Source: Podarcis pityusensis (taxonomy: Eukaryota). From it: DNA of 64,000 nucleotides. The stretch lies in the NCBI GenBank assembly GCA_964106645.2, contig OZ067046.1. One strand, written 5' to 3'. The position numbers were made by a program. Shown here piece after piece: positions 55,701-61,700 of the stretch; the stretch's first letter is position 1; each line of letters begins with the position of its first letter.

Positions 55701-58700
55701 GGAGCTATAGTAAAGGTAAAGGGACCCCTGACCATTAGGTCCAGTCGTGGCTGGACTCTGGAGTTGCGGCGCTCATCTCGCTTTATTGGCCGAGGGAGCC
55801 GGCGTACAACTTCCGGGTCATTATAAATCAGTATATTTAAGGTGACGGATAGGCCATCTCCCATCCTTCAACCACAAATCCACAGACAGAATGCGGACCA
55901 CCTCAATGAAGCTTGTAATCTGCAGACCAGTTTGGGAATTCCTGCTTGAAAATATTGTACTCTCAAAGCATATGGGAAATTCAATTTTATACAGCAAAAC
56001 ATTAAGCAATGCTAAACACTTTTAGCATTGCATCGTTTAAAATGGTAGATTCCTGACTTTTGTAAAAATAATAAGAATGCTCTCTGTACTGAGCATTCTC
56101 ATTTGTCTCATTTTAATGGAAAGTTAATACAGATTTTGTATAGGGGTGAGGGGGAGATGAAATAAAACTTACCCAGTTGGTACTTTGAGTAACAACTTGA
56201 TACTTGGCCAGGGCTGCATAATTGCCTCGTATTCCTTTCTCTGATATTCAGGTTGGTGAGTTTGTACTGTGTCCTCCTCCTCTTGCTTGTTTTCTTAGGG
56301 ACCTCAGCAGGACCATCTTCAAAAGTGACACGCTTGCTTGGTTTCTTGCAGTCTTGCTCAATATGCAGGTCTTTAACCAAGCTGAAATTCTTAGCTTCCT
56401 CAGCATCCTTTTCACATCTGTCAGACGTTCTCTGCTTAGCAGAGTGGGACCTTAAAGTACAGTGCCTTTTCCCCTGAAAGTAGCCGTGACTGGCACTACG
56501 ATCTACAGATTCCGGAGTGCAAACAACAGTGCTACTGAAAGAATGCTGTTCTTCAGCCGGGTTGATTTTCTTCAAAAATATTCTACAATCCTTAAAGGTT
56601 TTGTCTTTCCAGTCATCTTCACCAAAGGCATGTGCTTTCCCGATATTTTTTTGGTTGTGATCTACGGATTGTGCGCTTGGTCTACAATTATTTGTCAAGC
56701 CAGGCTTTGTGCTGAGGTCTGTCAATTGTGTTTTCTGTTGATAAAATGCACCTGTGGTTTCATTTCCAGTTGAAGTGATTCTCGGAGAGTCTACAAGAAT
56801 TGCGGGCGATTTAGTGTCTACCGTACCATTCTCGTGGCTTGTGCTCGTTTTGTTGTTAATTTCCTGACTTGTGTTAGCAAAACACTGGCTTTGGCAGAAG
56901 AATCGCAAATGCTGCTTTTTCGATTTCCAGTCACTTGTTCCATGATTATACAGCTTTTTCACTTGTCTCCACCGATCATGCTGCAAATTCTCAAATTTGG
57001 TTCTTCTTAATTTCGCTAAAGTGAAGTTACGTTTCCTCTTTAAGACTCGAGACCTGACTATTTTATGGAGAATTTGTATCTTTCCCGCTGATTTTGATGG
57101 CGTGGATAGTGCAAATTTTTTAAAGTGCTTTCTCAAAGGACTAGTATTACAATCGCATTGTCTTGTTCCAATTTTAAATTGTTGTGTACTGATTACTTCA
57201 ACAGGATTGCGAGCATTCGCCTTTCTCACTAATGCCAGTGACTGCGTTTCCGTAGTTTGCATAAACCATGTGCACAGTTCATCTATATTACACTTTTTCT
57301 GGAAAAGCATTTTTATAGGAGAGTTTTCAAGCTGTAACACGCAGGAGTCCAAAGGCTTTGATACTTTAATGCTATAGTCTTGTTCAATACGACACCGCTC
57401 ATCATAGAGACATTTTTCAAATTCTTCTCCGTTCACGTGCAACCAAGTATTTGTTATCTGTTCATATCTACTATTTAGTTCTTTTAACAAGGAATCATTA
57501 GAAATGGAAGGATCCCACCATCTGAGGGAAGAATTTGATGAAATGGTGGGATCTGATGACATTTCATTAACAAATCTAAACTTATTATTCTCTGAGCTTT
57601 TTTTTGCTTTTTCTGGGGCCTTATTTCCTGAGGTATCTTTGGGTGCCATGTTTGACTGTTTTATTTTTTGATTCTTAGCATTTTTCAAACAGAGCTTATA
57701 GGATTTGTGTAGAAAGGCACGTCTACAAGACAGTGAGTTAGAGGATGCTAAGGACTGTAAGAAAGGCAGCGATGGTCTTCTATCTCTAAGAGATTGTCTC
57801 AAAGGGATTTCAGGTTTACTTGGTGCTATTGTAATAATTTCATCCGAAAAATCCTTACTTTTATCATTCCAATAGCCTTTTGAAACATCCAACTTATTGC
57901 ATTGTTGATCAAGCTTCTTAGGAGACCCATGTTTTTCTAACATAGTCTCTTGTTCTAAAGGAGGCAGGTAGCTGTTAATACTCACTATTCTTTCCTGAGA
58001 TGAAATCTGGTTAACAGTCACTGATATGCCAGATATTTTTACTTTTGCTGGTCTACCAGGTTTTCTAATTATATTTAAAGGCTTCTGTTTTGGTCTTACG
58101 ATATTGCTGCAATGGGATGGTAGCACTGGGCTGCTCTCTAAAGGTCTAACATATTCATAGCCAGATGCAGAGGTCTTGCGTTCAGTAGAGTTTTGCATAC
58201 TTCTGTTTTTTGGCAAACTATTCCTTGTTTCTGAGTTCTGCTTCACTTGATCAGATTCACATACAACGTGATTGTGAGGACTTGGTACCAAACTGACTAC
58301 ATTTAGGCTACTTTCAGAAACACACCTCTTAGTCCTTCGTGACCTTCCAAAGACAACTGTCACAGTAATGTTCTTGTTAATATTATTGTCCTCTAGAACA
58401 TCTGCATTGGAGCTCACGCTTTTTTCCCTAGCACTGAAGGAATCACTTATATTATTGGCATTTTCAGCATCTACCTTAGGCTTTGGCGGTCGGCCAATTG
58501 GACGCTTAATCTGCTTCACAACTTGAGGACCTAATTTTTTTGGTCGGCCCGGTTTTCTTTTCAGAGAGGATCCATTGCCACTTTGTTCTACAGGGTTTTC
58601 ATTTGGCTTATGCTCACCAATGTTTGTTTCATGAGCAATTACTGTAGGAAAAACAGGATTTACTTCATTTTTAGGGCTGTTTTCAAGAGAAACAGTTTTA

Positions 58701-61700
58701 CCAGGATCCGCAGCTTCCAATTGTTTTTCTGCCAGCAAACCTGTTTTCCGCTGAAGAGAGTAAAGGTCAATGTTTAATTTAGCGGAATCATTTACAGAGG
58801 TTAGCGTGTATTTCACTCCTTCGCTACTATTAATCTCTGAAAGGAACATAAGTTTTATAGGACTAGTGTAATTTAGTGCTGGAGAATTATCTCCCACATC
58901 AGAACTTGACTGCAAGTCCTCATTATGGTAAGTCAACGTATCTGAATTGAATGCTGATGATTTCAAAAGGCTTTTATATCCTTCATCAGACACTTTTTCT
59001 TCTTTTGTTGGCAGACATTCCTGTTTGCTATTATTGCTACATGGAGCATGAGCTTGTGACAGTACATATTGTCCCGTACTTCCACTTTCACTCATGCTAA
59101 TAAGAAGACCATTTTTAGCATTATTGTTGGCTTCATACTTGTGCGTATCTTTCAGTTTGCTGGATATTTTGTAACTATTAAACAATGGCTTTTTAGTCTT
59201 TTGAGCCATATTTATTGTATCTTCCAAACGCTCTACAACAACATGTAGATTTGTGTTTCGTACAATCTTATTTATATCTTCGTTGCTGCACGTCTGGGCC
59301 TGTAAATCTTTGAGCATTTTTTCTCTTTCCATGCAGTTAGGTTTTTTCCCGTTTGAGGATTTTTGAAATAAAAAATTGTTTGTCACATACACAGAGCACC
59401 ACACAGGAGGAATAACATTATGTTTGGTCCTGTCCAACATCCTATCATCATCTCCCTTCACAGAGACTGGATCCATATGTAGTTCACAATTTCCATGTGT
59501 TTTAGCCAAGCGGTTTTGGGATGCTGTAGAAGTATTTTCTGAAAATGCTACTAAACCAGAATTGGTCTCTGAATTATTCAGAAGTAGTTCTACTGTCTCT
59601 TCTTGACCTATTGGCAAAGACTTTGATTTAATGGGAGAAAATAGCTGATATTTATTTTCATTAATTTGTAAAGAATGATCTTTTGATGTGCTATGATTTT
59701 CATTTTTGTTTGGTGATAGTTTGTAATTTTTTTTCACATTTCTTTTTGAATTTGCCTTTTTCCTTATGAAGGTTTCATCCAGACTGGCTATCTCTCTCTT
59801 AATTTGCAACGATTGTCTTTTAAACAGTGATGAATCAGGGGAATTATGCAGTGCAAATAAGGTTTCTTGCCGTTTGCGAAATCGTGTTTGGATAATTTTA
59901 TTTTCTGCTTCTTTGTCATGCTGGCTCAACAACTCCATAAAATTATAATCATTTGCCTTAGCATCATGTAAGAGAGAGGTTATGAAGCTCTGTAATTTAA
60001 TATCAGATTCTGTTCTCCCATCACTCTTAGATAATTTTGCAAGATTTGCTGTATCAGTAGTTTCAATTGATTTTAATTTCTCATTAATTCGATCCATTAA
60101 GTCCTGAAAGGCGGCAGCATTTTCAACTTTTTCAAGCTTATCAGAATTTATAAGGCTAGTTTCTTGATTTGCACTTAGAAAAGTCTTATCCACGTTACCG
60201 GCCACTTCTGCAATGCATAATTTATTTTTCGGTTCACACACAGAACAACTTCTTTCAGCTCGCGACAGGGAAGGAGGCTGATTACGATTCATTTCAAGTC
60301 TATTTAGAGATCCTTCAACTGATTCCTCCAAATAATCATATTCATCAGCTTCCACAGGTGATAATGTAGGTGGCGAAGGGCTGTGGCCTCTGCTAGCTTT
60401 GTTAATCTTTTGCCCTGCTGAAACGAGATTTGTACAAAGTGCTGTTCTTGCCGCGTGGCTCTTAGACTCCTTTAACTGTTTGAGGCAGCACCTAGGAGGA
60501 CTAGAAGGCACAGGATTCCCTTTGTTTACCACTGTGTTAACATATCCAACAGTCACAGACTGGAACGACAAACGATCTAAGTCTTTCACAGAGACTGACA
60601 GAGGTGGCAAACAAGTATTTGGTCTTTGATTTTGTAAACAGCACCTTTTCATTTGCATGTTGCCATCACAACTGCAGACTGGAATGTGCACATCATCTTC
60701 AGATGCTTTTGAATGTATAGTTTGCGGCAGTTGGCAACTGCCAACAGAATCAATACACGATTCTTGGATTAAAAATTTCAACATAGCTAAAATCTGATGC
60801 CCGTGATAAGAGCATAACGATTCCAAAACCTTGCTTAGAGCAGAATTTCCTCTTTCCAATTTAGATGTTTCCTCTGATTTTGCATCATCTGTTGCACTTG
60901 AACTGAAAACGAAAAGCAGATCAAAACAAAAAGGAAATTGCAGTTAAATATGGCACAATATGACTGAAGATTAATTCTGATAAGGTACCAAAACTCTTAT
61001 TTCAAAAGTTACAGTTCCCCTGAGGTTCTGCATATACATTGTATGGAACACATACAACATTAATGAATCTGCTAACATTATGTGCTACAACAGTAAGAAA
61101 AACTCAAGCTTGGCTAATAAATTATTTTTTAGTCAGATAGATTCTCCAATATAAAATATGCAACTGCACCTTCCATAAAATAGTCTAACCACAGAAATAA
61201 TAAGCCTTCATTTACTCCAGTGAGATAATATTTTAATTTAAACAATAGTCACGATATGGTTGTCATACTAATCACATTTTAACTATGAGTAAATTACATT
61301 TAAATCAATAGGACTCTGGGCCGCTTCACACATGGCCAATTTCTAATACAAATATCATGTCTTAATAGCAAATTTCGTGAGTTCTAAAAGTACATTTTGT
61401 GCTACAAAAGCACACAGCGCAGGGAAAAAACCCTCAGTTGGTTGATGGTTTCCCCTACTAGTACATGGAGCAAAACATACACATTTGAATTTATCAGACA
61501 TGACTGTATATTTGTTTTTATTTTGAGTATATATTTTGTGGTTTTATATTTTGATTTTGTTCTGTGAACCACCCTGAGACCTCCGGGTATAGGGTGGTAT
61601 ATAAATTCAATAAATAATAATAATATATTCAAGATGTAATGAACTTCCTACAAGAATGTCGTATTTCCATACAGGAAATTAGCCATTTGGTAAGCAACCC

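What the first reader, a model, noticed from the sequence alone, without database searches (positions are those of the whole stretch)
56173..60902. Intact 4.7-kb PALI2 exon of LCORL: a reptile PRC2.1 accessory module
Seen: one exon with about 1576 uninterrupted codons and no recognisable TE. It contains three AT-hooks (KRKPGRPKK 58561-58535, KRPIGRPPK 58507-58481, RKPGRPAK 58066-58043) and the PIP region. Established: LCOR/LCORL alternative exons encode PALI1/PALI2, which bind PRC2, and this exon is often missed in annotations. Truncations removing the PIP region are associated with larger body size in several domestic animals. Inference: this lizard allele is full length, and the exon is a candidate for body-size variation in lizards.
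Basis: partly seen in the sequence, partly recalled or inferred. Interest (0 to 1): 0.65.

Follow-up and report, generated by a model that had tools for sequence, protein, structure and literature searches.

The report
Intact LCORL long (PALI2) exon, lizard
This is the ordinary, full-length long exon of the lizard LCORL gene, encoding the PALI2 protein that in mammals is linked to Polycomb repression and body size, and it is already annotated in closely related lizards.

Summary
Window 60902..56173 (minus strand) is one 4730-nt exon with 1576 complete codons. It lies in a 1611-codon open frame; the next longest in the window has 200 codons. It has a canonical acceptor and donor.

Identity: the top 120 of 436 protein hits include 95 named LCORL and none named LCOR or anything else. 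The best is Podarcis muralis LCORL isoform X1, at 97% identity over 100% of the exon. Pfam DUF4553 matches at E 3.2e-57.

The KHFKKFAL motif, which holds the lysine that activates PRC2 in mammalian PALI2, is identical in 36 of 36. NCAPG lies convergently on the plus strand, as at the mammalian NCAPG-LCORL locus.

The exon is internal. It most likely splices to a short tail exon starting at 49480 that adds 36 residues.

PRC2 binding is inferred from mammalian work, where endogenous PALI2-PRC2 association is still unproven. The lizard body-size idea is untested. All 16 squamates in my panel, dwarf gecko to Komodo dragon, keep the whole exon.

Verdict: correct identification of a known, already annotated gene. 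Low interest.

The parts
56173..60902 (-). Long coding exon of LCORL (the PALI2-specific exon): 4730 nt, made of 1 base + 1576 codons + 1 base
   Evidence: Open frame. Splice signals. 97% identity over 100% coverage to residues 249-1819 of Podarcis muralis LCORL isoform X1.
60903..60930 (-). Splice acceptor: pyrimidine-rich tract followed by AG at 60904-60903
   Evidence: Read directly. The split codon GG|T gives the Gly at residue 248 of the P. muralis model.
56171..56172 (-). Splice donor GT (CTGG|gtaagt)
   Evidence: Read directly. Orthologue models diverge from one another exactly after ...SKYQL.
58535..58561 (-). AT-hook 1, KRKPGRPKK (exon residues 781-789)
   Evidence: The core PGRPK is identical in 36 of 36 panel orthologues.
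58481..58507 (-). AT-hook 2, KRPIGRPPK (residues 799-807)
   Evidence: The core IGRPP is identical in 36 of 36.
58043..58066 (-). AT-hook 3, RKPGRPAK (residues 946-953)
   Evidence: The core PGRPA is identical in 36 of 36.
56867..57796 (-). Region equivalent to the PRC2-interacting region (PIP/PIR), exon residues about 1036-1345
   Evidence: Mapped from the human PALI2 1330-1641 construct (PMC8319299) through a lemur orthologue, with an 8-residue numbering offset. It is more conserved than the exon as a whole: 58% against 45% identity to dog.
57113..57118 (-). Putative effector Lys-Phe (exon K1262-F1263), counterpart of human PALI2 K1558-F
   Evidence: KHFKKFAL is invariant. KHFKKFALS is identical in 35 of 36 orthologues, and the other one differs only at the final S. 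K1558 and its adjacent Phe are described in PMC8319299.
56201..57553 (-). Pfam DUF4553 (PF15090) match, exon residues 1117-1567
   Evidence: E 3.2e-57, 195 bits against a cut-off of 27, profile positions 1-470 of 479.
59702..60181 (-). Conserved block of unknown role (exon residues 241-400), outside DUF4553, the only Pfam family matched. Residues 321-360 are 85% identical across the panel.
   Evidence: Conservation profile. AlphaFold2 predicts helices only, with mean pLDDT 58.6 and pTM 0.25.
49371..49480 (-). Probable next (tail) exon. The acceptor AG is at 49482-49481. Together with the G left over at 56173 it adds GPLKPVGLPLLGGFASRAVEYSMIPFQLPLHGSSQV and a stop at 49373-49371.
   Evidence: tblastn of the Varanus model tail gives 94% identity, E 3e-16. 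Sequence read. The same tail is present in 17 of 21 named squamate models.

Best explanation
The region is the orthologous long exon of LCORL in a lacertid-like lizard. It is spliced between upstream LCORL exons (outside the window) and a short tail exon starting at 49480, giving a PALI2-type protein of roughly 1860 residues.

Shown here: an intact reading frame, canonical splice signals in the conserved phase, orthology, the NCAPG neighbour, three invariant AT-hook cores, a DUF4553 match, and an invariant KHFKKFAL motif.

Inferred from mammalian work: the region around residues 1036-1345 docks on PRC2.1. PRC2 methylates the Lys of the Lys-Phe pair, and the methyl-lysine then binds the EED aromatic cage and stimulates H3K27 methylation. 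The AT-hooks add contacts with the minor groove of AT-rich DNA. The docking region is predicted to have no fold of its own, which would fit folding on its partner.
For: - Frame and splice sites.
- Homology: 436 hits at E <= 0.001. Of the 120 listed, 95 are named LCORL, 13 are named uncharacterized or hypothetical, 12 are unnamed, and none is named LCOR or any other protein. Identity falls with phylogenetic distance: 97% to Podarcis, 59-77% to other squamates, about 50% to turtles and birds, about 44% to mammals.
- Alignment to residues 249-1819 of the 1860-residue P. muralis model, with only two in-frame indels of 4 and 1 residues.
- DUF4553 at E 3.2e-57.
- AT-hook cores identical in 36 of 36 orthologues, and the effector motif identical in 35 of 36 with one change at its last position.
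- Conserved islands coincide with the AT-hooks and the PIR-equivalent region.
- Five collinear Cnd3 (PF12719) pieces of NCAPG lie on the plus strand between 29.4 and 34.8 kb. Four are above the curated cut-off and one is below it.
- Tail exon.
- Mechanism, from passages read: PMC8319299 (K1558me3 peptide binds EED with Kd 8.8 uM; a PRC2-PALI2 1330-1641 complex is more active than PRC2 alone), PMC8864842 (three AT-hooks, PRC2-interaction domain), PMC12448305 (mouse PIP deletion lowers H3K27me3 and raises body weight).
- AlphaFold2 on the PIR-equivalent gives mean pLDDT 44.2 and pTM 0.17, consistent with a region that has no fold of its own.
Against: - There are no transcript data, so neither junction (upstream exon to 60902, or 56173 to 49480) is shown.
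- The upstream LCORL exons are not in the window. No match to residues 1-245 of the P. muralis model was found.
- The Pfam AT_hook model did not report any of the three motifs, either on the whole exon or on the excised pieces at E <= 10.
- The cores are P/I-G-R-P rather than the R-G-R-P that I recall as canonical.
- The physiological PRC2 link is unsettled. PALI2 was absent or poorly covered in most PRC2 pull-down datasets (PMC8319299). K1558R mice are viable, and the authors know of no direct evidence for an endogenous PALI2-PRC2 interaction (bioRxiv 10.1101/2025.03.13.642955).
- The mapping of K1558 relies on a lemur orthologue in which the Lys is residue 1550. I did not use the human sequence.
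- The P. muralis X1 model uses a different tail, with an extra small exon that I could not find in the window.
Confidence: 0.88

Rival explanations
1. The protein is real, but its physiological action does not go through PRC2. It would instead act as an AT-hook, DNA-binding co-regulator (for example with CtBP through the shared N-terminus), and the PRC2 contacts seen in vitro would be marginal in vivo.
For: - PALI2 was detected in only two PRC2 affinity datasets, with poor coverage (PMC8319299, passages).
- K1558R mice, and the double mutants with PALI1 K1241R, are viable, and there is no direct evidence for an endogenous interaction (bioRxiv 10.1101/2025.03.13.642955, passages).
- A second strongly conserved block, residues 241-400 with no known PRC2 role, is as conserved as the PIR core.
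Against: - The KHFKKFAL motif is invariant across 36 amniotes.
- The PIR-equivalent is more conserved than the exon average.
- A reconstituted PRC2-PALI2 complex is more active than PRC2 alone (PMC8319299).
- Ectopically expressed PALI2 binds PRC2, as cited in bioRxiv 10.1101/2025.03.13.642955.
- H3K27me3 is reduced in mice lacking the PIP domain (PMC12448305).
Confidence: 0.15
2. The exon is used mainly as a stand-alone gene transcribed from a promoter in the upstream intron, as C10orf12 was once annotated, and not as part of LCORL.
For: - 13 of the 120 listed hits are annotated as separate 'uncharacterized' or 'hypothetical' proteins of about 1435-1823 residues.
- The first in-frame Met is at exon residue 40.
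Against: - There is a strong acceptor with a pyrimidine tract exactly at the conserved exon boundary.
- The split codon completes the Gly seen in the spliced P. muralis model.
- 95 of the 120 listed hits are spliced LCORL models.
- No exon-like open frame or other signal was seen in 60903-64000.
Confidence: 0.05
3. It is a retrocopy or pseudogene of LCORL, or it is the paralogue LCOR/PALI1.
For: - LCORL retrocopies exist in equids (PMC10249811; title and abstract start seen in a search listing only).
- PALI1 also carries DUF4553. This is recalled, and is implied by the homology of the PRC2-interaction domain described in PMC8864842.
Against: - A retrocopy would carry the upstream exons fused in frame. 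Here the match stops at the intron-exon boundary, with canonical AG and GT.
- The frame is intact over 1576 codons.
- NCAPG lies next to it.
- No listed hit is named LCOR.
- Three AT-hooks are described as a PALI2 feature that PALI1 lacks (PMC8864842).
Confidence: 0.01

Closest known systems
Podarcis muralis LCORL isoform X1 (NCBI model, 1860 aa; P0002)
   Same: 97% identity over all 1576 exon residues, with the same exon start and end.
   Different: There are 49 substitutions and two in-frame indels. The window has 4 extra residues at 383-386 and 1 extra near 869. The model's C-terminal tail comes from an extra small exon, not found in the window, and reads the tail exon in another frame.
Mammalian PALI2 (long LCORL isoform; human K1558, construct 1330-1641)
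   Same: Three AT-hook cores, a DUF4553 match, the invariant KHFKKFAL motif, and the same exon boundaries.
   Different: Only about 44% identity overall, and 58-62% in the PIR-equivalent. Mammalian models end with a 4-residue tail such as ACYK, whereas most squamate models carry a 36-residue tail. No biochemical data exist for any reptile protein.
PALI1 (LCOR / C10orf12)
   Same: A paralogous long alternative exon with a PRC2-interacting region and an effector Lys-Phe (K1241) (PMC8319299, PMC8864842).
   Different: PALI1 has no AT-hooks and has G9A-interaction and nuclear-receptor motifs instead (PMC8864842). None of the 120 listed hits is named LCOR. I made no direct sequence comparison with PALI1.
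JARID2 (PRC2.2 accessory subunit, K116)
   Same: It works alike in mammals: a methylated Lys followed by an aromatic residue binds the EED cage (PMC8319299).
   Different: It is not homologous, and the resemblance is described as convergent (PMC8319299; bioRxiv 10.1101/2025.03.13.642955).

Membership tests
LCORL long isoform / PALI2 | Best sequence matches are LCORL long isoforms over the whole exon | tested here: met
   95 of the 120 listed hits are named LCORL and none is named for another gene. 97% identity and 100% coverage to P. muralis.
LCORL long isoform / PALI2 | C-terminal DUF4553 (PF15090) domain | tested here: met
   E 3.2e-57, 195 bits against a cut-off of 27, exon residues 1117-1567.
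LCORL long isoform / PALI2 | Three AT-hooks (a feature PMC8864842 gives for PALI2 and not PALI1) | tested here: met
   Three GRP cores with basic flanks at the stated coordinates, identical in 36 of 36 orthologues.
LCORL long isoform / PALI2 | Effector Lys followed by Phe in the PRC2-interacting region (human K1558-F) | tested here: met
   KHFKKFAL is invariant. The Lys is residue 1550 in the 1865-residue lemur model. The exact equivalence to human K1558 is inferred.
LCORL long isoform / PALI2 | Genomic position next to NCAPG, in convergent orientation | tested here: met
   Five collinear Cnd3 pieces on the plus strand. The convergent arrangement in mammals is recalled, and is consistent with the cattle coordinates in PMC11121065.
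LCORL long isoform / PALI2 | Exon spliced to the shared N-terminal LCORL exons | not testable with these tools
   No transcript data, and the upstream exons lie outside the window. The splice signal and phase are compatible.
LCORL long isoform / PALI2 | Binds PRC2.1 and stimulates H3K27 methylation | not testable with these tools
   No vertebrate PRC2 sequences were at hand for a complex prediction. The evidence is mammalian only (PMC8319299, PMC12448305).
AT-hook (Pfam PF02178) | Match to the family HMM | tested here: not met
   The model was not reported for the whole exon at E <= 1 or for the two excised stretches at E <= 10. The model is very short, and HMMER filters drop weak matches.
AT-hook (Pfam PF02178) | GRP core flanked by Lys/Arg (motif definition, recalled from memory) | tested here: met
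   KRKPGRPKK, KRPIGRPPK and RKPGRPAK. The residue before the Gly is P, I and P, not the Arg of the classical RGRP.
PALI1 (LCOR/C10orf12) | Best matches are to LCOR long isoforms, with no AT-hooks | tested here: not met
   None of the 120 listed hits is named LCOR, and three AT-hook cores are present.

The most novel reading that the evidence does not exclude
Frameshift or stop variants upstream of the PIR-equivalent (upstream of about window 57796 on the minus strand) could segregate in wild lacertid populations. They could contribute to body-size differences, for example between island and mainland forms, repeating in nature what breeders selected in eight domestic species. My data do not exclude this, because only one allele is seen here, and database models under-represent truncated alleles.
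Probability: 0.04. Interest if true: 0.6.

Novelty: already known. Interest (0 to 1): 0.12.

Why it matters
It matters little as a discovery. The gene, its long isoform, its AT-hooks and its PRC2-interacting region are all described, and the same exon is annotated in a lizard 97% identical to this one.

It is useful as annotation. The report fixes the exon bounds, the phase, the likely tail exon and the coordinates of the functional motifs. These are what a population screen for truncating variants in lizards would need.

The comparative result is a mild caution for the body-size idea. All 16 squamates in my panel, from a dwarf gecko to the Komodo dragon and pythons, keep the complete exon (the body sizes are recalled from general knowledge). 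Loss of the PIP region therefore does not accompany large size among these species.

Tried and rejected
- Translating 56173-60902 directly failed with 186 stops, because the exon starts in codon phase 2. I corrected the range to 60901-56174.
- A PDB sequence search with the exon gave 0 hits at E <= 1.
- Pfam scans of 20 long ORFs elsewhere in the window gave only the NCAPG Cnd3 piece. No HTH_psq exon of the shorter LCORL isoform was found in the window, among minus-strand ORFs of 120 aa or more only.
- The Pfam AT_hook model did not report the motifs.
- AlphaFold2 on the PIR-equivalent (mean pLDDT 44.2) and on the conserved block 235-385 (mean pLDDT 58.6) gave no confident fold, so I ran no fold search.
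- A search of the minus strand for the extra small exon of the P. muralis X1 model found nothing at 10 or more of 18 identical residues.
- One literature search was badly designed, allowing any 2 of 6 terms, and returned irrelevant squamate papers.
- Two proper searches ('LCORL' + 'lizard' + 'body size', 4 papers; 'LCORL' + 'reptil', 16 papers of which 13 were listed) showed no paper on LCORL in lizards, judged from titles and abstract starts only.
- The search of protein representatives and the two remaining homology searches were not used, because they would not have changed the verdict.
- I made no comparison with PALI1 or with the human PALI2 sequence.
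Full report
**1. Observation**

The window holds one outstanding open frame, at 56108..60943 on the minus strand, of 1611 codons from stop to stop. The next longest of the 6673 stop-to-stop segments in all six frames has 200 codons. With the local base composition, the chance of 1611 open codons is about 10^-50.

- A pyrimidine-rich tract ends in AG at 60904-60903, so the exon starts at 60902.
- The exon ends at 56173, in front of GT at 56172-56171, in the context CTGG|gtaagt.

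The exon is 4730 nt: one base, 1576 codons (60901..56174, stored as P0001), and one base. My first translation failed only because of this phase. The window has no N. I do not take it for human, since the exon is 97% identical to a lizard protein and about 44% identical to primate ones.

**2. Identity**

- Pfam finds DUF4553 (PF15090) at exon residues 1117-1567, with E 3.2e-57.
- A homology search with the exon alone gave 436 proteins at E <= 0.001. Of the 120 listed, 95 are named LCORL, 13 are named 'uncharacterized' or 'hypothetical', 12 carry no name, and none is named LCOR or anything else.
- Identity falls with phylogenetic distance: 97% to Podarcis muralis isoform X1, 59-77% to other squamates, about 50-53% to turtles, crocodile and birds, and 43-46% to mammals. 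Almost all listed hits cover the whole exon.
- The exon aligns to residues 249-1819 of the 1860-residue P. muralis model, with 49 substitutions and two in-frame indels. The source is therefore a lacertid-like lizard, and probably not P. muralis itself.
- No match to residues 1-245 of that model is present, and 60903-64000 shows nothing exon-like. The shared N-terminal LCORL exons lie outside the window.

**3. Surroundings**

On the plus strand, five ORF pieces match successive parts of the Cnd3 domain of condensin subunit NCAPG.

| ORF (window, + strand) | Cnd3 profile positions | Note |
|---|---|---|
| 29375-29539 | 31-71 | above the curated cut-off |
| 30542-30805 | 71-129 | above the curated cut-off |
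| 32006-32317 | 132-192 | above the curated cut-off |
| 32810-33280 | 189-252 | above the curated cut-off |
| 34486-34833 | 252-288 | just below the cut-off |

NCAPG therefore runs towards LCORL, which is the arrangement of the well-known NCAPG-LCORL locus. That arrangement is recalled, and is consistent with the cattle coordinates in PMC11121065. This synteny argues for orthology, and against a retrocopy or the LCOR paralogue.

**4. The exon is internal**

In all named models the sequence after ...SKYQL differs between lineages, which marks a conserved donor.

The tail of the Varanus model matches window 49484-49380 at 94% identity, E 3e-16. Read directly, an acceptor AG lies at 49482-49481. 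Together with the G left over at 56173, the exon starting at 49480 encodes GPLKPVGLPLLGGFASRAVEYSMIPFQLPLHGSSQV, followed by a stop at 49373-49371.

Seventeen of the 21 named squamate models carry this tail, and so does one turtle, Chrysemys. The P. muralis X1 model inserts a further small exon, which I could not find in the window. It then reads the same tail exon in another frame, with a stop at 49414-49412. Which tail this species uses cannot be decided without transcripts.

**5. Anatomy and conservation**

I aligned the exon with 36 named orthologues: 16 squamates, 10 turtles, crocodile and birds, and 10 mammals.
- All 36 cover the exon to its last residue. Between 5 and 71 of the 1576 positions are gapped.
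- The AT-hook cores PGRPK, IGRPP and PGRPA are identical in 36 of 36.
- KHFKKFALS is identical in 35 of 36, and the remaining one changes only the last residue.
- Three GRP tripeptides occur, against 0.13 expected from composition.

The conserved islands are residues 321-360 (85% mean identity), 681-720, 761-800, 921-960, 1121-1160 and 1201-1320.

I transferred the human PALI2 construct 1330-1641 (PMC8319299) through a lemur orthologue, in which the Lys-Phe is at 1550-1551. This places the PRC2-interacting region at exon residues about 1036-1345 (window 57796-56867), and the effector Lys-Phe at K1262-F1263 (window 57118-57113). That region is more conserved than the exon as a whole, for example 58% against 45% identity to dog.

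The guide sequence printed in PMC12448305 for the mouse model of the cattle frameshift translates to VTVVYGR. This corresponds to the invariant ITVTVVFGR at exon residues 845-853. The best-studied truncation therefore falls between AT-hooks 2 and 3, upstream of the PRC2-interacting region. This mapping is my inference.

**6. Structure**

- AlphaFold2 with the 37-row alignment gave no confident fold for residues 1030-1350: mean pLDDT 44.2, pTM 0.17, with some helices.
- For the conserved block 235-385 it gave only moderately confident helices: mean pLDDT 58.6, pTM 0.25.
- I ran no fold search on such models.
- The PDB holds no detectable relative by sequence.

This fits a largely disordered scaffold whose conserved islands act as binding motifs.

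**7. Mechanism**

Shown here: the motifs and their conservation.

Taken from papers (passages read):
- PALI2 is the LCORL long isoform. It has three AT-hooks and a PRC2-interaction domain homologous to that of PALI1 (PMC8864842).
- A PALI2 K1558me3 peptide binds EED with Kd 8.8 uM and stimulates PRC2. A PRC2-PALI2 1330-1641 complex is more active than PRC2 alone (PMC8319299).
- Deleting the PIP domain in mice lowers H3K27me3 and raises body weight by 9-12% (PMC12448305).

Against a simple picture:
- PALI2 was rarely seen in PRC2 pull-downs (PMC8319299).
- K1558R mice are viable, and the authors know of no direct evidence for an endogenous PALI2-PRC2 interaction (bioRxiv 10.1101/2025.03.13.642955).

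For the lizard, all of this is inference by homology.

**8. Body size**

The literature claims in the finding hold.
- Truncations of the long isoform are associated with larger size in dogs (PMC12047267).
- The same holds in cattle (PMC11121065).
- According to PMC12448305, truncations also occur in sheep, goats, pigs, horses, rabbits and chickens.

For lizards there is no evidence. Two searches listed no paper on LCORL in lizards, judged from titles and abstract starts.

In my panel, all 16 squamates keep the complete exon, from Sphaerodactylus to Varanus komodoensis and pythons (the body sizes are recalled from general knowledge). Loss of the PIP region therefore does not track size among these species.

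Two caveats apply. The search listed only proteins of 866-2758 residues, and prediction pipelines may smooth over frameshifts.

**9. Verdict**

It is the ordinary, intact long exon of a known gene, already annotated in a near relative. Interest is low.

Left unchecked:
- Transcripts.
- The closed supplements of PMC12448305 and PMC8319299.
- A direct comparison with PALI1 or with human PALI2.
- The closed collections metagenome contigs and viral contigs, which would not bear on a lizard gene.

Noticed in passing
window 29375-34833 (+), probably from about 7.5 kb to beyond 35.6 kb: Most of the NCAPG gene lies on the plus strand. Five collinear Cnd3-domain pieces were confirmed by Pfam. Further NCAPG-like exons, including a possible first coding exon in ORF 7524-7718 (which gave no Pfam match), were seen by eye only in the ORF list.
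   Followed up: partly
window 49371-49480 (-): Short tail exon conserved among squamates and one turtle. It is read in two different frames by different NCBI models. Direct splicing from the long exon gives a 36-residue tail. The P. muralis X1 model reaches it through an extra exon that is not found in the window.
   Followed up: partly
window 59702-60181 (-), exon residues 241-400: A helical block that is as conserved as the PRC2-interacting core. Residues 321-360 are 85% identical over 36 amniotes. It has no Pfam family, and no function was mentioned in the papers I read.
   Followed up: partly
window about 22100-26900 (+): Several ORFs look like reverse-transcriptase fragments of a LINE-type retrotransposon, inside what would be an NCAPG intron. 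They were seen by eye in the ORF list. The only two ORFs of that stretch that I scanned (24568-25017 and 25113-25478, minus strand) gave no Pfam match.
   Followed up: no
window 18300-18420 and 19400-19470 (+), 39250-39400 (+): Simple-sequence runs are visible as repetitive translations (CV repeats, ER repeats, poly-Y/L/I), suggesting dinucleotide and trinucleotide microsatellites.
   Followed up: no
window 56946-57377 (+): A 143-codon open frame runs antisense to the DUF4553 part of the long exon. It is most likely a by-product of the coding strand's composition.
   Followed up: no
window 59746-59757 (-), exon residues 383-386: The window has four residues (ANSK) that the P. muralis X1 model lacks. 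Other amniotes have residues at this place in the alignment consensus, so the shorter form looks like the derived one.
   Followed up: partly
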